From the IMG/VR virus record IMGVR_UViG_3300018890_000002, positions 17,219 through 81,218 of that record: a DNA stretch of 64,000 bases; one strand, 5' to 3'. The stretch comes from a virus. The notes beneath the pieces were generated by a model that was not told the DNA's origin, searched no databases, and saw only the letters and a list, made by a program, of their open reading frames with translations. Of this stretch, positions 2,153 through 26,166 are shown piece after piece; the stretch's first letter is position 1, and every line of letters starts with the position of its first letter. The position numbers were made by a program, and so were the translations under genes.

Positions 2153-2743
2153 CTACCAAAGTCGTTCTTCTACACCAAAAACTCTAGATCTGTCTTGTCT
2201 AAAGTCAAATTCCATATTACTTCTATTATGTTGATACTTACCAATTACAGTATAGTTTCGAGTAATATTATCTCTTCTCTCAGTTAGTTGAGGAGTAAAA
2301 GGAAGAAGTAAAGGATAAGCTTCTCTTATTGCATTATCTTCAGGGGCAAAGATACCGGGGATATAAATACCTGAGCCGATAAAATATCCTTTAAGTAATT
2401 CCTTAGCTTTCTGATAAATAGTAGAACCAAACCCACCATCTCCTCCAAGTGAAGCAATCATTCCTTGATCGTAAAGAGACATCATTAGATCGTTAATAAC
2501 GAATCCTTCTAATATTGGTTCTATTAGTGGAATATCTCTTGGGTCAATAGGTAAGACATAAAGCATTCCAAAATAAGTATCAATAAGAGTTTCATTTCTA
2601 ATGATTAAATCGTGTATTAGTTCAGTATCTAAATTACTAGATAAAACTGATACATTATCACTAGGAATAAGAGAGTTAGTAAAGACATTAGCTCTTCTAC
2701 CTAATCGTCTTTGAATCTTTTCAACAGTTATATACTTATACAT
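2153..2743 (-). CDS. Head-tail adaptor, Mu gp36/DUF1320-like
   Basis: MYKYITVEKIQRRL start and LIDTYFGMLYVLPI motif resemble the gp36 family; start moved to ATG 2743, which overlaps the upstream stop. Confidence 0.6.
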   Translation of the reverse strand: MYKYITVEKIQRRLGRRANVFTNSLIPSDNVSVLSSNLDTELIHDLIIRNETLIDTYFGMLYVLPIDPRDIPLIEPILEGFVINDLMMSLYDQGMIASLGGDGGFGSTIYQKAKELLKGYFIGSGIYIPGIFAPEDNAIREAYPLLLPFTPQLTERRDNITRNYTVIGKYQHNRSNMEFDFRQDRSRVFGVEERLW

Positions 2744-3165
2744 TAGATTCCATTCTTCTTTTTCCAATCATCAAATCGGGTAGCAGCTCTTAAGTTTCTA
2801 GCTACATCTAAACCATGCTTCTTATTCCATCTTTGAGCTTTAACTTTATTCATAAGTCCCCCTGCAATATCTTTTTTAATGTTGAGTCCAGTATTTACTA
2901 CTCCTCTAGCTTGTTGTACACCTGGTAGTATAGTATTTTTAAAGTAGTTTTTCTTACTCTTATCATTCATAAATATCCCAGCAGTTTTCATAGCTGCATA
3001 AGTCTGTCCACCTGTAACTAATCCTCTTTTAATCTTTTGATGGGTAGTAGCTTTTGAATCTCCAGTAGCAGCTAATGCCCCAACCGCTAAGGGAACTAAA
3101 TATGGGCTATTCTTTTCTATAAATCTCTTACGTTTTTTAGCTGGACTATCAAATGGTCGCCACAT
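2743..3165 (-). CDS. Basic protein with a hydrophobic segment, putative virion protein
   Basis: Coupled ORF in the structural operon; YLVPLAVGALAATG hydrophobic stretch. Confidence 0.6.
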   Translation of the reverse strand: MWRPFDSPAKKRKRFIEKNSPYLVPLAVGALAATGDSKATTHQKIKRGLVTGGQTYAAMKTAGIFMNDKSKKNYFKNTILPGVQQARGVVNTGLNIKKDIAGGLMNKVKAQRWNKKHGLDVARNLRAATRFDDWKKKNGI

Positions 3166-4718
3166 TAATCTTTCCCCTCTATTTGTCTCATCTCTTTATT
3201 TATATCATTAATGACAGGTCGAATAAGTCTAGGATATATACTAGGTAAAAGTTGTCCAAAAATAACATAACATACAGCTAGAAAAGCTAATACCCCTTTT
3301 AGGTTTAACTCCTTAAAAAAACTAAGGACATTGACGTTTAATAAATCATCTAATTGGTCTTTTAACTTCTTATTACTTTCTTCTATTCTAGTTAACTTTT
3401 CTCTCATAACATTGTCTTCATTTTTCAGAAAAGCAACGTCATTGAGTAAATTATTATCATTATTATAAAAAATAGTATTATTAAGTCTACTGATTTCTTC
3501 TTCCAATTTACGAATAATTATTTCTGCTTTTATAAGTCCTTCTGGGTTAGAAGTAAGAGGATTATGAATTAACTTAGAAAAAACATCATTAGACATTTTA
3601 GTATTTTCTAAAGTCTTCAATAGTAAATCGGTTCTTCCTTCCATCTCATCTATACGAGTAGTTAAAAGAGCTTCTTGACTTTGATCGATTACAGTAGATA
3701 AAATTCTCGCTTGCCCATCTCTATTAATTAATCTATTAGACCACTTAGTATCAATGAGAGAACCGTCTTTTTTAGCTAACTTAAAATTACTAATTACACT
3801 TTCTACTTCATGAGCAATTAGTCTATAAATCTGACCTTGCATTTTAATCGAATCTTCATCATTAAAAAGATTAAGTTCAGAAATATGTTTCCCTAAAGCT
3901 ACTTCATTACTCCAACCTAACGTTTCACAAGCTTGTTTATTCCATCTACTAACTTTACAATCTTTATCCCACTCTATTTTTATAATTACACTACTGTTAA
4001 AACTATCTTCATCTAGGTTTTTAAGCTCTGTTATTTTTGAAGTCATCTCAACTTCTAAAGTAATATCTCTTAAATAACCAACAATTTTGGATTCACCATC
4101 TTTAGGTATTACACAAGAATGGTCTAATATACTAATAGCTTTTCCTGAACTATGTAGTAGTCTATACTTCTGATAAAAAGAAGATATTTTATTTTTTATA
4201 TTTTTTGCTAACTCTTTAGAGAAGAATTCTTTATCTTCAGGATGTATAAGATCCAAATAAGGTCTAGATAATAATTCTTTTTTTGTATATCCCAATAAAG
4301 AAACTACATTATCAGAAATCTCATCTATCTTCTCTTCTTTATTATTAAGCCAACGAATAAGAAATATATAATCTTCTTTAAATAGTGTCTCTGCTAATAA
4401 AGTATCGGTTTTTTCAGTTCCTACCACTACTATGTAATTCTGATATCTATAACCAGTAAAAATAATTTCTATCTCCCTTTTGTTTTGGACATCGTTGATA
4501 GTAGTAGTTATAGTATTTTCACCTTCATTAAATACTTTATCTAGAAAAGACCTGGTACTATCTGAGTAAGTGTATCCTTTAACAGTTTCAAAATTACTTA
4601 CTGCTTGATTAAGTCTATCTGTCTTATACGAAGGAATATAGTAAGTAATATTATCACTTATATATCTGTAATAATAATTCTCCCCACATTTTTCAATTAA
4701 TATACTAAAAACAACCAT
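3165..4718 (-). CDS. Tandem PAS/PAC domain protein with coiled coil and C-terminal TM helix, no recognisable output domain
   Basis: LLGYTKKELLSRPYLDLIHPED...YRLLHSSGK...IVGYLRDIT (PAS_3-like) and WNKQACETLGWS...KKDGSLIDTKWS (second PAS); TM segment GVLAFLAVCYVIFGQLL. Confidence 0.85.
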   Translation of the reverse strand: MVVFSILIEKCGENYYYRYISDNITYYIPSYKTDRLNQAVSNFETVKGYTYSDSTRSFLDKVFNEGENTITTTINDVQNKREIEIIFTGYRYQNYIVVVGTEKTDTLLAETLFKEDYIFLIRWLNNKEEKIDEISDNVVSLLGYTKKELLSRPYLDLIHPEDKEFFSKELAKNIKNKISSFYQKYRLLHSSGKAISILDHSCVIPKDGESKIVGYLRDITLEVEMTSKITELKNLDEDSFNSSVIIKIEWDKDCKVSRWNKQACETLGWSNEVALGKHISELNLFNDEDSIKMQGQIYRLIAHEVESVISNFKLAKKDGSLIDTKWSNRLINRDGQARILSTVIDQSQEALLTTRIDEMEGRTDLLLKTLENTKMSNDVFSKLIHNPLTSNPEGLIKAEIIIRKLEEEISRLNNTIFYNNDNNLLNDVAFLKNEDNVMREKLTRIEESNKKLKDQLDDLLNVNVLSFFKELNLKGVLAFLAVCYVIFGQLLPSIYPRLIRPVINDINKEMRQIEGKD

Positions 4719-4723
4719 TTCAT

Positions 4724-5002
4724 TTATTCTTTCGTTTTGGTAGGGGCAAGCTTAGTAGTTAACAAGCCCACTGGAATACCTGACTCTGCACTTTCTCTGA
4801 TATCATTATTCACTCTCATACGACCTTGACTTACTCCTAAGAAACTAAATGTTCCAATGAGCAATTGAGTAAAATCTTCTTTAGTCATTTCTTTCTCATA
4901 TAGGTAATTTACTATTGGTGAGTAGACTACTGAAAGATAAAGTAAGAAAGAAAAGAAAAAAGTCTTAGTGAAGTAAAGAGAACGTTTCATTTTACTTTTC
5001 AT
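4724..5002 (-). CDS. Putative holin (2 TM) with possible dual start (Met-Lys-Ser-Lys-Met)
   Basis: Small, two hydrophobic helices, charged C-tail, immediately downstream of the endolysin; ATGs at 5002 and 4990. Confidence 0.6.
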   Translation of the reverse strand: MKSKMKRSLYFTKTFFFSFLLYLSVVYSPIVNYLYEKEMTKEDFTQLLIGTFSFLGVSQGRMRVNNDIRESAESGIPVGLLTTKLAPTKTKE

Positions 5003-5007
5003 ATTTT

Positions 5008-5784
5008 TTAATTTGCTATATGCACCCAATAATTTCCATCACCTTCAGGAGCGCCTACTTGTTTAATTAATGGGAAAGAATATAACGTTTCTTTACCCGC
5101 AGTAGGACTATGAATATATCCATTATGAGTAAACTCTCCATAAGGATCGTTAACTATAAATGCACCAACTCCATCATAAGCGTCATAATCAGAACCAACT
5201 AAGAGAATAATATGAGTACCTTCAGTCAAGAATGTTCCTAAAATAACAGGAGCTTTTTTAACAGCATCTTTTATCTCTTGGAATGTCCCAGTAGTAATAG
5301 GAGTATATTTAACTCCATAACTATTCATAATAGCGGATATGTCTTGGTGAGAAAATCTATCATATCCTAAATCTAAGCATTTATTATATAAAGCATCAGG
5401 AGTTACCTTAATCTTATAAAAAGACAAGAGCATTGCTACACAACTTAAGAAACAAGAAGTATAAGGTTGATAGTTATTATATAGTTGATAATAGTAATCA
5501 GTTTTAAGTGAAGTTTTACTATTAGAGCTAGTAACAGGATTTTTAGATTCTTCCGTTATATCAACGTGTTCTTTATAGATGTACCAAACTCTAACACCTA
5601 CAGGTAAATCTTTTAAATTAGATGTAAGTAGTTTAACCTCTAAGTGATTATCTTTTTCTCTTAAAATATCTACTACTATTTCAGTGTTAATCTCCAACCA
5701 ATAAAAGTATTTAGAGTCAAGTTCAATGAATGGAATTGGTCTACTCTTAAGAGGAGTTTTATTTATGATTTTTAATTTAGACAT
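5008..5784 (-). CDS. Putative endolysin, C39-like cysteine peptidase with N-terminal SH3-like region
   Basis: YYYQLYN...SCFLSCVAMLL (Cys), GTHIILLVG (His), FIVNDPYG (Asp). Confidence 0.75.
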   Translation of the reverse strand: MSKLKIINKTPLKSRPIPFIELDSKYFYWLEINTEIVVDILREKDNHLEVKLLTSNLKDLPVGVRVWYIYKEHVDITEESKNPVTSSNSKTSLKTDYYYQLYNNYQPYTSCFLSCVAMLLSFYKIKVTPDALYNKCLDLGYDRFSHQDISAIMNSYGVKYTPITTGTFQEIKDAVKKAPVILGTFLTEGTHIILLVGSDYDAYDGVGAFIVNDPYGEFTHNGYIHSPTAGKETLYSFPLIKQVGAPEGDGNYWVHIAN

Positions 5785-19168: not shown

Positions 19169-19240
19169 AAGTCCATAGTTTAGTAGATAGAATACGGAAC
19201 TTCTAATTCCATGACCTCAGTGCGATTCTGAGTGGACTTA
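19169..19240 (+). tRNA. tRNA-Arg(UCU), no encoded CCA, atypical T-loop
   Basis: Acceptor AAGTCCA/TGGACTT, D-arm GTTT/GAAT, anticodon loop CTTCTAA, T-arm CTCAG-TGCGATT-CTGAG. Confidence 0.85.
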
Positions 19241-25659: not shown

Positions 25660-26166
25660 ATGAAAAAGAACTTAAGAGCTATTGGTATTTTCGTAGGATG
25701 TATAAGTGCTTCTTGTGCATTGATGGTACTATCTGCTCTTACTCCTAAACAAAATTTATATCTTATCAATAATCAAATTAATACTTTAACGACTAAGACT
25801 AACGATAAAAAAATACAATCTAACTATACTTTTTTAGCTTTTATATTACTCTCAGGAGCTATTCCATTTGCTGCTATGTCTTTATTAGTTGTGTCTAATA
25901 GATTACCAGAGATAGAGTTAGAAGCTGAGGAGTATAATAAGCAGAAAGAAATAAGAAGAATAAGAAAAAACTCCGAATTAGAAACTGAGAAGGAGTTATG
26001 TAATGCTAATAAAACTGTAACTGTCACTGCTCATGAGAAGAATTTAGAGAGTGCATTTGTTGAGTTAGCTGAAGCTAGTGATTGGCATTATGTATCAGAT
26101 AATGATGAGGAAGAAGTAAAAGATAGTAACTCATTAGTAATAGAAGATCAAAAAAAAAATTCTTGA
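25660..26166 (+). CDS. 2-TM coiled-coil membrane anchor, ends at an A10 slippery run
   Basis: Two hydrophobic helices; GATCAAAAAAAAAATTCTTGA at the 3' end. Confidence 0.75.
   Translation: MKKNLRAIGIFVGCISASCALMVLSALTPKQNLYLINNQINTLTTKTNDKKIQSNYTFLAFILLSGAIPFAAMSLLVVSNRLPEIELEAEEYNKQKEIRRIRKNSELETEKELCNANKTVTVTAHEKNLESAFVELAEASDWHYVSDNDEEEVKDSNSLVIEDQKKNS

What the first reader, a model, noticed from the sequence alone, without database searches (positions are those of the whole stretch)
3165..5784. Lysis cassette containing a membrane-anchored PAS-PAS protein with no signalling output
Seen: endolysin, holin and a 517-aa protein with two PAS/PAC domains, a coiled coil and a C-terminal TM helix, closely spaced in one operon. 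There is no kinase, GGDEF or HTH domain. Established: PAS domains sense light, redox, oxygen or small ligands, and antiholins set lysis timing through membrane interactions. Inference: a sensor-controlled lysis regulator (sensory antiholin or holin partner) that times lysis to host metabolic or light state. A PAS decoy for host kinases is the alternative.
Basis: partly seen in the sequence, partly recalled or inferred. Interest (0 to 1): 0.72.

Follow-up and report, generated by a model that had tools for sequence, protein, structure and literature searches.

The report
Membrane-tethered PAS protein beside phage lysis genes
An uncultured soil-crust phage encodes, in a row, a likely cell-wall-cutting enzyme, a small holin-like membrane protein and a sensor-type (PAS) protein anchored in the membrane by its tail, which may tie the moment of host bursting to the state of the cell, although only gene order supports that so far.

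Summary
Three tightly packed minus-strand genes lie at 3165-5784.

- **258-aa peptidase:** Peptidase_C39_2.
- **Small membrane protein:** two hydrophobic segments. It is really 92 aa from ATG 5002, not 101 aa.
- **517-aa PAS protein:** two Pfam PAS domains, a third PAS-like N-terminal domain seen only in the model, a near-invariant helical segment, a heptad helix and one C-terminal membrane helix. It has no kinase, GGDEF, EAL or HTH.

The "endolysin" label is reasonably supported. C39_2 was the only one of ten cell-wall-hydrolase families tested that I found in two terminal-repeat-bounded ~150-kb relatives. In other cyanophages it is fused to glucosaminidase or GH19.

The "holin" label rests on position, size and topology, plus one protein-language-model lead.

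The lysis-regulator reading of the PAS protein rests on gene order alone. That order is kept in 11 of 11 related loci, but the whole block is syntenic and sits between the head and the neck/tail genes. The complex prediction gave no verdict, and a co-evolution signal did not replicate.

This scan has followed up the same trio in three related phage genomes with the same outcome.

I class it as a new variant of known membrane-tethered or cytoplasmic lysis regulators, unproven. Interest is 0.5.

The parts
5008..5784 (-). 258-aa protein with a beta-rich N-terminal domain (about residues 1-80) and a papain-like Peptidase_C39_2 domain (residues 94-215). It has no signal or membrane segment. Likely endolysin.
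   Evidence: Pfam PF13529 E 1.8e-13, 51.7 bits against cut-off 24. phrog_10051 'endolysin' E 4.1e-16. C111 and H191 are invariant in 14 relatives. The AF2 model has pLDDT 61 and its top PDB match is the pseudomurein endoisopeptidase PeiR, E 9e-4. It is the only cell-wall-hydrolase family found in G000, G001 and G002.
4724..5002 (-). 92-aa membrane protein (second ATG at 4990 gives 88 aa). It has a basic N-terminus, a hydrophobic segment at about 8-35, a short second hydrophobic segment at about 43-60 and a charged C-terminal tail. Holin candidate.
   Evidence: 33 relatives of 84-105 aa, all metagenomic, with no Pfam, PHROG, NCBIfam or PADLOC family. The nearest ESM Atlas clusters carry Phage_holin_1 (score 0.91, 179 shared features); this is a lead only.
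4404..4718 (-). PAS517 residues 1-105: PAS-like alpha/beta domain, seen in the model only.
   Evidence: AF2 secondary structure E4-11, E14-20, H55-65, E67-76, E81-92, E95-102, pLDDT 60-80. The Foldseek top hit is the triple-PAS protein PpsR 4hh2, 378 columns, E 3.5e-16. No Pfam match.
4059..4364 (-). PAS517 residues 119-220: PAS1 (PAS_3 type). It carries DH[ST]C in a beta strand in 33 of 33 relatives and ends in YLRDI(T/S).
   Evidence: (PER/ARNT PAS-B, about E 4e-6).
3684..3998 (-). PAS517 residues 241-345: PAS2.
   Evidence: Pfam PAS 248-322. TIGR00229 best stretch 240-345. Model pLDDT 81-90.
3444..3683 (-). PAS517 residues 346-425: helical segment, the most conserved part of the protein (39 of 67 columns invariant in 358-424; EGLIKAEIIIRK present in 32 of 33).
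   Evidence: dN/dS 0.02-0.21, among the lowest of the regions in most pairs. No relative outside the family among 1.84 billion representatives.
3309..3443 (-). PAS517 residues 426-470: long helix with a heptad pattern (putative coiled coil).
   Evidence: H424-460, low pLDDT. Sub-threshold coiled-coil Pfam hits: CorA stalk, SKA2, Uso1. The heptads were read by eye.
3165..3302 (-). PAS517 residues 473-517 plus the stop codon: a single C-terminal membrane helix (about 473-495) and a 22-residue tail.
   Evidence: KD19 2.15 at 476-494. A single C-terminal hydrophobic segment in 33 of 33 relatives.
2743..3165 (-). 140-aa basic Gly-zipper protein whose start overlaps the PAS517 stop (TAATG). It is a variable neighbour, present in 6 of 11 related loci.

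Best explanation
**Shown.**
- The 517-aa protein is a real gene under purifying selection.
- It is kept as a single-copy family of 513-520 aa in a clade of uncultured ~150-kb phages from soil crusts and other metagenomes.
- It has three PAS-type domains, a near-invariant helical segment, a long helix and one C-terminal membrane helix. It has no catalytic or DNA-binding domain.
- It is always encoded directly after a C39_2 peptidase and a small two-segment membrane protein, inside the late head-to-tail gene block.

**Inferred.**
- The peptidase is the phage's cytoplasmic endolysin and the small protein is its holin.
- The PAS protein is tail-anchored in the inner membrane with its PAS domains in the cytoplasm.
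- Its PAS domains bind a cytoplasmic ligand or sense redox or energy state.
- The change passes through the DIT-type PAS exit and the conserved helices to the membrane helix.
- There it holds back or promotes assembly of the holin into holes, or otherwise controls release of the endolysin. Lysis time then depends on host state.

The signal and the direction of the effect are unknown.
For: **Anatomy.** Pfam and NCBIfam PAS matches. The AF2 model is matched by triple-PAS PpsR, FixL and DosP. A single C-terminal hydrophobic segment is present in 33 of 33 relatives. No other domain appears at E<=10 in 19 of 19.

**Constraint.** dN/dS is 0.05-0.27 over 12 pairs, with the helical segment among the lowest regions. 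39 of 67 columns are invariant in 358-424.

**Context.** The order p133-C39-small TM-PAS-(p140)-p204 is kept in 11 of 11 viral loci, including a clade whose major capsid protein is only 54% identical. The intergenic gaps are 5 nt, 5 nt and -1 nt.

**Endolysin label.**
- C39_2 is listed among endolysin catalytic domains (PMC5017753, passage). The LysA N5 domain is C39-like (PMC3314691, table passage).
- It is fused to Glucosaminidase in PSS2 gp098 and to GH19 in A-HIS1 ORF088.
- A-HIS1 ORF088 is not flagged as a virion protein although its neighbours are.
- Of the ten families searched in G000, G001 (terminal repeats, 151 kb) and G002, eight are absent: Phage_lysozyme, Amidase_2, GH19, M23, Glucosaminidase, Amidase_3, NLPC_P60 and M15_4. 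SLT gives one sub-threshold hit of 12.5 bits. C39_2 is present once in each record.

**Holin label.** Size, two hydrophobic segments, a basic N-terminus and a charged tail. A 106-aa two-TM protein also follows the C39_2 gene in Microcoleus phage My-WqHQDG. The Atlas lead points to Phage_holin_1 clusters.

**Precedent.** Mu gp25 is a membrane-tethered cytoplasmic 'releasin' (PMC9239132, abstract). phiKZ gp143 is a cytoplasmic regulator reported to bind the holin's cytoplasmic domain (PMC12894885, abstract).

**No two-component partner.** HATPase_c, Response_reg and GGDEF are absent from 6 of 6 related records, two of them with terminal repeats.
Against: - Adjacency is the only link to lysis. 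It carries little weight because all neighbouring genes are equally syntenic in every relative.
- The trio lies between the major head protein (phrog_29) and a head protein, Neck1 and the tape measure. That is an unusual place for a lysis cassette.
- C39_2 genes of other cyanophages also sit among structural genes: TR020 between capsid and tail tubular protein, and Lbo402 after a Phage_base_V gene. The peptidase could therefore be an entry lysin.
- No holin family matches the small protein. Its similarity to the Microcoleus phage protein is weak (hhalign probability 24%).
- In locus L015 a Gly-zipper gene separates C39 from the small gene.
- The related pair in My-WqHQDG lacks a PAS gene.
- No spanin candidate lies nearby.
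- No cofactor motif was found.
- The host is unknown. There is no psbA or hli in 6 records.
Confidence: 0.3

Rival explanations
1. **Host-signalling interference.** The protein is a membrane-tethered PAS decoy. It heterodimerises with host PAS-containing sensor kinases or regulators, or sequesters their partners, during late infection. Its place beside lysis genes is incidental.
For: - PAS_3-type domains like those of PER/ARNT/HIF are classic protein-protein dimerisation modules.
- There is no output domain, and no phage kinase, receiver or GGDEF in 6 of 6 records.
- The domains form a mosaic among relatives: the nearest relative differs per domain, for example P0001 against P0002 is N-terminal 0.90, PAS1 0.59, PAS2 0.56, helical segment 0.96. 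That fits sensor modules tracking different hosts.
- Most viral PAS proteins in BFVD are kinase-type signalling proteins.
- Biocrusts hold both cyanobacteria and blooming Bacillales (PMC5844995, title and abstract start only).
Against: - The gene lies in the late structural block, not among early host-takeover genes.
- The most constrained part is not a PAS domain. It is the helical segment leading to the membrane helix.
- The membrane anchor is kept in 33 of 33.
- No close host homologue exists. The best cellular PAS proteins are 23-28% identical and generic, and there are none in 185,579 species genomes.
Confidence: 0.2
2. **Morphogenesis or entry role.** The peptidase is a virion-associated cell-wall lysin. 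The small membrane protein and the PAS protein act in membrane-associated assembly, or are packaged and ejected, together with the many basic Gly-zipper proteins of the same block.
For: - The trio is embedded between head genes and neck/tail genes.
- Gly-zipper basic genes are inserted on both sides of the trio, and even inside it in L015.
- C39_2 genes sit in structural modules of TR020 and Lbo402.
- The neighbours p133 and p204 are highly conserved at 72-92% identity.
Against: - A-HIS1 ORF088 (C39_2 + GH19) is not flagged as a virion protein while adjacent ORFs are.
- If the peptidase is only an entry lysin, the phage is left with no recognisable endolysin among the ten families searched.
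- No PHROG structural family matches any of the three proteins.
- The PAS N-terminus is predicted as a strand of the first domain, not a cleavable leader.
- PAS sensors have no known virion role (my recollection; I made no search for this).
Confidence: 0.15
3. **Releasin-like or endolysin-directed control.** The PAS protein acts on the peptidase, by tethering, inhibiting or releasing it at the membrane, rather than on the small membrane protein.
For: - Mu gp25 is a membrane-tethered cytoplasmic protein that controls endolysin release (PMC9239132, abstract).
- The three genes are co-linear and tightly coupled.
Against: - The peptidase has no SAR or signal segment on which a releasin could act.
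- There is no DUF2730 or any other match.
- gp25 has an N-terminal membrane helix; this protein's is C-terminal.
Confidence: 0.08

Closest known systems
Phage Mu releasin gp25 (DUF2730; Chamblee et al. 2022, PMC9239132, abstract read)
   Same: A membrane-tethered, mostly cytoplasmic protein encoded with lysis genes. It controls when the cell-wall enzyme acts and has no enzymatic domain.
   Different: - gp25 has an N-terminal membrane helix and no PAS domains, and it acts on a SAR endolysin in a holin-less phage.
- Here the helix is C-terminal, the peptidase has no SAR segment and a holin candidate is present.
- There is no sequence similarity (no Pfam DUF2730 hit).
phiKZ gp143 lysis regulator (PMC12894885, abstract read). 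T4 RIII is a similar cytoplasmic antiholin, recalled and not read here.
   Same: An extra gene in a lysis cluster. Its cytoplasmic product is reported to bind the holin's cytoplasmic domain and shift lysis timing.
   Different: Those proteins are soluble and carry no sensor domain. No homology was detected (PHROGs). Binding here is untested.
VqmA of vibriophage VP882 (PMC8284805, search listing and abstract start)
   Same: A phage-encoded PAS-domain receptor through which a phage reads a chemical cue that bears on host killing.
   Different: VqmAPhage is a soluble transcription factor with a DNA-binding domain, and it governs the lysogeny-lysis switch. The protein here has no DNA-binding domain, is membrane-anchored and lies in a late block of a phage in which no integrase was looked for.
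Multi-domain cyanophage lysins with Peptidase_C39_2 (A-HIS1 ORF088, PSS2 gp098), for the 258-aa neighbour
   Same: They share the C39_2 papain-like domain. Pfam E-values are 7e-17 and 2e-8. tblastn identities to the window protein are 31% and 30%.
   Different: Those carry a second glycosidase domain (GH19, Glucosaminidase). The window protein instead has a beta-rich N-terminal domain, shared with Microcoleus phage My-WqHQDG (36% identity over 73% of the query).
PpsR/CrtJ-type triple-PAS regulators and PAS sensor kinases (FixL, DosP)
   Same: The tandem PAS fold and the helical exit from the last PAS domain (Foldseek E 3.5e-16 to 6e-14).
   Different: - No HTH, kinase, GGDEF or EAL output.
- The output region has no relative outside the family.
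- The short (D/N)PLT(S/G) motif recalls both the H-box and the start of GGDEF domains. Profile comparisons give probabilities of 2.7% and 0.4%, no better than a reversed control.

Membership tests
PAS domain superfamily | Profile match above the curated cut-off | tested here: met
   PAS_3 68.2 bits against 25.6; PAS 56.8 against 22.6; PAS_9 48.3 against 27. TIGR00229 82.4 against 22.9. 19 of 19 relatives match PAS_3, PAS and PAS_9.
PAS domain superfamily | Five-stranded antiparallel sheet flanked by helices | tested here: met
   AF2 model: PAS1 and PAS2 at pLDDT 73-90. Foldseek hits to PpsR, FixL, DosP and ARNT at E 1e-16 to 1e-11. The N-terminal domain is PAS-like in the model only.
Sensor histidine kinase | HisKA/DHp domain with a phospho-accepting His (H-box) | tested here: not met
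   No HisKA at E<=10 in 19 of 19. H-box regex in 0 of 33. hhalign of residues 340-430 against the DHp of 10 kinases gives probability 2.7% over 8 residues.
Sensor histidine kinase | HATPase_c catalytic domain | tested here: not met
   Absent from the protein and from 6 of 6 related phage records in six frames.
Diguanylate cyclase / phosphodiesterase (GGDEF/EAL) | GGDEF or EAL domain | tested here: not met
   PF00990 gives no match at E<=10 in 6 phage records, against 16 over the cut-off in a control bacterial genome. GG[DE]EF motif in 0 of 33. hhalign against 4 GGDEF domains gives probability 0.2-0.4%, with the reversed control at 0.5%.
LOV blue-light sensor | Flavin-adduct Cys in the NC[RK]F motif | tested here: not met
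   0 of 33. The motif itself is recalled from memory.
Holin (small protein, 4724-5002) | Small size, at least one membrane helix, charged C-terminal tail, gene next to the endolysin (criteria as quoted in PMC9096620, Introduction passage) | tested here: met
   92 aa; hydrophobic segments at about 8-35 and about 43-60; a charged tail; 5 nt after the C39_2 gene.
Holin (small protein, 4724-5002) | Membership of a described holin family | tested here: not met
   No Pfam, PHROG, NCBIfam or PADLOC match. The Atlas feature search points to Phage_holin_1 clusters at 0.90-0.91, a lead only.
Holin (small protein, 4724-5002) | Timed lethal hole formation that releases the endolysin | not testable with these tools
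   Needs expression in a host.
Antiholin / holin regulator (PAS517) | Binds the holin and shifts the time of triggering | not testable with these tools
   Needs genetics or biochemistry. See Tried and rejected for the structure-prediction attempt.
Antiholin / holin regulator (PAS517) | Homology to a known antiholin or regulator (RI, RIII, LydB, gp143, DUF2730) | tested here: not met
   No PHROG family at E<=0.01. No Pfam family other than PAS. The C-terminal 172 residues have no relative outside the family.
Endolysin with a Peptidase_C39_2 catalytic domain (258-aa protein) | C39_2 domain with conserved Cys and His | tested here: met
   PF13529 51.7 bits against 24. C111 and H191 are invariant in 14 relatives. 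That these two residues are the catalytic pair is inferred.
Endolysin with a Peptidase_C39_2 catalytic domain (258-aa protein) | Cleaves host peptidoglycan from within at the end of infection | not testable with these tools
   Indirect support only: fusions to glycosidases in PSS2 and A-HIS1, and it is the sole hydrolase family found in the records.
Spanin | Lipobox outer-membrane subunit or embedded gene pair next to the cassette | tested here: not met
   The only lipobox-like ORF in the window plus L006 is at 25660-26166, about 20 kb away.

The most novel reading that the evidence does not exclude
The PAS protein is a sensory antiholin (or pro-holin). It is an inside-out signalling device in which cytoplasmic PAS domains read the host's redox, energy or metabolite state and move a single membrane helix. 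That helix gates assembly of the holin. A lytic phage of a pulsed, desiccation-prone habitat would then postpone or trigger lysis according to whether its host is metabolically active. The domain-wise mosaic among relatives would reflect swapping of sensor modules on a fixed output module.
Probability: 0.25. Interest if true: 0.8.

Novelty: new variant of a known kind. Interest (0 to 1): 0.5.

Why it matters
Lysis timing sets phage fitness. The known controls are holin-intrinsic clocks, dual-start antiholins, the T4 superinfection-sensing RI/RIII system and a few accessory regulators such as Mu gp25 and phiKZ gp143.

A lysis regulator that carries bona fide ligand- or redox-sensing domains would be the first case of a strictly late, post-translational link between host physiology and the lysis clock. 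It would also give a simple membrane-helix output for PAS signalling.

The family is compact: three genes, no cofactor machinery and 33 natural variants with swapped domains. The idea can therefore be tested by co-expressing the three genes. If the lysis reading is wrong, the protein is still an output-less, membrane-tethered triple-PAS protein unique to one phage clade, and its target is unknown.

Tried and rejected
1. **Complex prediction** of PAS517 residues 346-517 (alignment A1) with the small membrane protein (alignment A2). The tool returned no verdict (score 0.00 in both runs, mark 0.32, controls not run). This counts neither for nor against binding.

2. **The look-up of sequencing runs**. 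No RNA holder was listed. The two DNA holders come from one biocrust study, and one of them may be the source sample.

3. **Degenerate histidine-kinase DHp domain in the conserved helical segment.** Rejected. hhalign probability is 2.7% (an 8-residue match around HNPLTS) and the reversed control gives 0.5%. There is no HisKA in 19 of 19.

Rejected. hhalign probability is 0.2-0.4% against 0.5% for the reversed control. No PF00990 match at E<=10 in 6 records.

5. **CorA-like hits** in 8 of 19 relatives. They are sub-threshold (13-20 bits against a cut-off of 27) and fall on the coiled-coil stalk part of the profile alongside SKA2 and Uso1. I treat them as compositional.

6. **Capsid-targeting or propeptide leader at the PAS N-terminus** (prompted by note e1-6118722). 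Not supported. Residues 4-11 are a predicted strand of the first domain. I did not test cleavage motifs formally.

7. **Co-evolution of the small protein with the PAS membrane helix/tail.** Mantel r = 0.64, the highest of six regions, in 18 genomes. Twelve of those pairs were matched only by equal contig length, and L016 and L018 were dropped because a regex failed. In 11 securely paired loci r was 0.50 overall and 0.32 within clades, not the highest. I judge it not established.

8. **Diversifying selection.** Rejected. dN/dS is 0.05-0.27 in all regions, with dS near saturation in many pairs.

9. **Relatives elsewhere.**
   - tblastn of the whole protein against 50,697 phage records: no match at 1e-5.
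   - The PAS core at E<=1: one weak hit.
   - Genome contigs: no family member, only a generic PAS protein in a Roseobacter.
   - A third viral-contig scan with a C39 alignment returned only the same clade.

10. **Neighbours.** PDB sequence searches for p204, p133 and the C39 family found nothing. No PADLOC defence family matched apart from a chance Cas6b hit at E 0.004.

11. **Literature.** 'antiholin' + 'PAS domain' gave 4 papers, of which the 3 listed are not about phage PAS regulators. 'PAS domain' / 'jumbo phage' / 'holin' gave no paper holding 'PAS domain' among the 15 listed. 'phage-encoded' + 'PAS domain' + 'lysis' gave 11 papers, the relevant ones on VqmAPhage. I therefore found no description of a PAS-type lysis regulator.

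12. **Host.** No psbA-type or hli-type gene in 6 records. The cyanobacterial hint rests on 13 of 13 tblastn hits of the peptidase being to cyanophages.

Full report
**What is there.**

The window is bases 17219-81218 of an 81,218-base IMG/VR virus record. The DNA comes from a biocrust metagenome.

On the minus strand, 5008-5784, 4724-5029 and 3165-4718 are open frames of 258, 101 and 517 codons. They are packed tightly:
- The 258-aa gene's stop is followed after 5 nt by ATG 5002, with a second ATG at 4990.
- The small gene's stop is followed after 5 nt by the 517-aa gene's ATG.
- The 517-aa gene's stop overlaps the next start (TAATG).

Gene callers start the small gene at one of the two ATGs, giving 92 or 88 aa. 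The TTG start at 5029 lies inside the upstream gene and is probably not used.

Promoter-like and terminator-like sites are no more frequent than in shuffled sequence. The three genes are therefore part of a long late transcript, not a separate unit.

**The 517-aa protein.**

- **PAS domains.** Pfam finds PAS_3 (residues 133-214) and PAS (248-322) well above their cut-offs. NCBIfam's sensory-box model scores 82 bits.
- **Model.** An AlphaFold2 model built on 19 relatives has mean pLDDT 65. The two PAS domains score 73-90. Residues 1-105 form a further PAS-like alpha/beta domain at 60-80. Residues 346-517 are helices of low confidence.
- **Structural matches.** Foldseek's best solved match is the triple-PAS protein PpsR (378 columns, E 3.5e-16), followed by FixL, DosP and ARNT/HIF. 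By sequence the nearest solved PAS domains are PER and ARNT PAS-B.
- **Membrane anchor.** One strongly hydrophobic stretch lies at 473-495. There is no other, in 33 of 33 family members. With no signal sequence, the protein should be tail-anchored with its PAS domains in the cytoplasm. This is an inference.
- **No output domain.** None appears at E<=10 in 19 of 19 members. Motif counts are GGDEF 0 of 33, H-box 0 of 33, LOV 0 of 33 and CxxCH 0 of 33.

**The family.**

A word-indexed search of 5.8 billion proteins found 33 full-length relatives (50-100% identical, 513-520 aa). All come from metagenomic or viral contigs. Below them there is a gap down to generic PAS proteins at 23-28% identity.

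The C-terminal 172 residues have no relative outside the family among 1.84 billion representatives. No member occurs in 185,579 species genomes or in 50,697 phage records.

The gene is under purifying selection. dN/dS is 0.05-0.27 in 12 pairs, and the helical segment 346-425 is among the lowest regions. That segment is the most conserved part: 39 of 67 columns are invariant in 358-424, and EGLIKAEIIIRK is present in 32 of 33. PAS1 keeps DH[ST]C in 33 of 33, and in many members this is the only cysteine.

The family is a domain-wise mosaic. The closest relative of the window protein is 90% identical in the N-terminal domain and 93-96% in the C-terminal parts, but only 56-59% in the two PAS domains. 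For many members the nearest relative differs from domain to domain.

**The neighbours.**

- **The 258-aa protein.** It has a Peptidase_C39_2 domain (51.7 bits, cut-off 24) and matches the C-terminal half of a PHROG annotated as endolysin. Cys111 and His191 are invariant. A mediocre model (pLDDT 61) is best matched by the pseudomurein endoisopeptidase PeiR and other papain-like proteases.
- **Relatives of the peptidase.** All 13 of its tblastn hits in the phage collection are cyanophages. Among them, PSS2 gp098 is Glucosaminidase + C39_2 and A-HIS1 ORF088 is C39_2 + GH19. That ties the domain to cell-wall degradation. C39_2 is also listed among endolysin domains (PMC5017753, passage), and the mycobacteriophage LysA N5 domain is C39-like (PMC3314691, passage).
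- **Other wall hydrolases.** Two relatives' records (151,199 and 146,537 bases) have direct terminal repeats and are probably complete. In the window's record, the 151-kb one and a third record, six-frame searches found no Phage_lysozyme, Amidase_2, GH19, M23, Glucosaminidase, Amidase_3, NLPC_P60 or M15_4. They found only a sub-threshold SLT hit, and one C39_2 gene in each record. The GH19 control rang in no control genome, so that blank is weak. The peptidase is therefore the only recognisable wall hydrolase.
- **The small protein.** It has a basic N-terminus, a strong hydrophobic segment, a shorter second one and a charged tail. It matches no described family. Its nearest clusters in the ESM Atlas carry Phage_holin_1, at a score that shuffled proteins reach 4-10% of the time.
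- **A distant parallel.** In Microcoleus phage My-WqHQDG the homologous peptidase, which has the same N-terminal domain, is likewise followed by a 106-aa two-TM protein. Its similarity to the small protein is weak (hhalign probability 24%). No PAS gene follows it.

**Context.**

The gene order is p133, C39, small TM, PAS, (p140), p204. It is kept in 11 of 11 viral loci, including a sub-clade whose capsid protein is only 54% identical.

Everything around the trio is equally syntenic. The trio lies between the major head protein (phrog_29) on one side and, on the other, a head protein (phrog_240), a Neck1/tail-completion protein and a tape-measure-like protein.

Basic Gly-zipper genes come and go on both sides of the trio. 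In one locus such a gene sits between the peptidase and the small gene. C39_2 genes of two other cyanophages also sit in structural modules. An entry-lysin role therefore cannot be excluded.

No lipobox protein lies nearby.

**Mechanism.**

The best-supported reading is that PAS517 is a membrane-tethered, cytoplasm-facing regulator of the holin or of endolysin release. Three observations fit signalling from the PAS domains to the membrane helix:
- The PAS exit motif YLRDI(T/S).
- The near-invariant helices that lead to the membrane helix.
- The absence of any enzymatic output, and of any phage kinase, receiver or GGDEF protein in six records.

There are precedents for accessory, non-enzymatic lysis regulators: Mu gp25 and phiKZ gp143 (abstracts). 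A phage PAS receptor is known in VP882. Other viral PAS proteins are mostly kinases.

Direct support is lacking. The co-evolution signal did not replicate. No cofactor or signal can be named, and the host is unknown.

I put the lysis-regulator reading at about 0.3, a host-signalling decoy at 0.2, a morphogenesis or entry role at 0.15 and an endolysin-directed role at 0.08. The rest is something not yet thought of.

**Comparison and novelty.**

The protein is a member of the PAS superfamily. It is not a member of any kinase, cyclase, LOV, antiholin or releasin family that I tested. What it may work like is a membrane-tethered lysis regulator, and a sensor-bearing one has not been described in the papers I could search.

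This scan has already followed up the orthologous trio in three related phage genomes, with the same verdict.
- the family-wide motif, selection and mosaic analyses;
- the wider hydrolase and signalling-domain searches on terminal-repeat-bounded relatives;
- the negative tests of the H-box and GGDEF-remnant ideas;
- the non-replicating co-evolution test.

Noticed in passing
G001 (record of L005, 151,199 bases) and G004 (record of L016, 146,537 bases): Both relatives have direct terminal repeats, yet CheckV rates them 48-49% complete and the window's record 26%. The clade's genome is probably about 150 kb, not about 300 kb.
   Followed up: partly
L014 4526-4942; L017 4538-4948; L005 8455-8937; L015 5308-5721; window 2743-3165: Genes of the basic Gly-zipper family are inserted at different places around the trio in different relatives. 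In L015 one sits between the peptidase and the small membrane gene. p140 is present in only 6 of 11 loci.
   Followed up: partly
window 3165-4718 and its 32 relatives: The PAS protein is a domain-wise mosaic, with the nearest relative differing between the N-terminal domain, PAS1, PAS2 and the C-terminal parts. This suggests recombination at domain borders. I ran no formal recombination test.
   Followed up: partly
window about 4113-4124 (PAS517 residues 199-202): DH[ST]C in a PAS1 beta strand is kept in 33 of 33 relatives, and in many it is the only cysteine. It could be a redox or ligand-binding site.
   Followed up: no
L031 about 1400-1950 (Leptolyngbya phage Lbo402-yong5, OR994056.1): An unannotated open frame encodes a C39_2-like protein directly after a gene annotated 'tail-associated lysozyme', which matches only Phage_base_V.
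   Followed up: partly
window 25660-26166 (+): This is the only lipobox-like N-terminus among ORFs of the window and L006. It lies in the membrane-protein/ATPase operon, far from the trio.
   Followed up: no
window 3549-3575 (PAS517 residues 382-390): A short (D/N)PLT(S/G) motif, kept as PLT in 33 of 33, recalls both the kinase H-box and the start of GGDEF domains. It is not supported as homology by profile comparison.
   Followed up: yes
window 19169-19240 (+): A single tRNA-Arg(TCT) gene.
   Followed up: no
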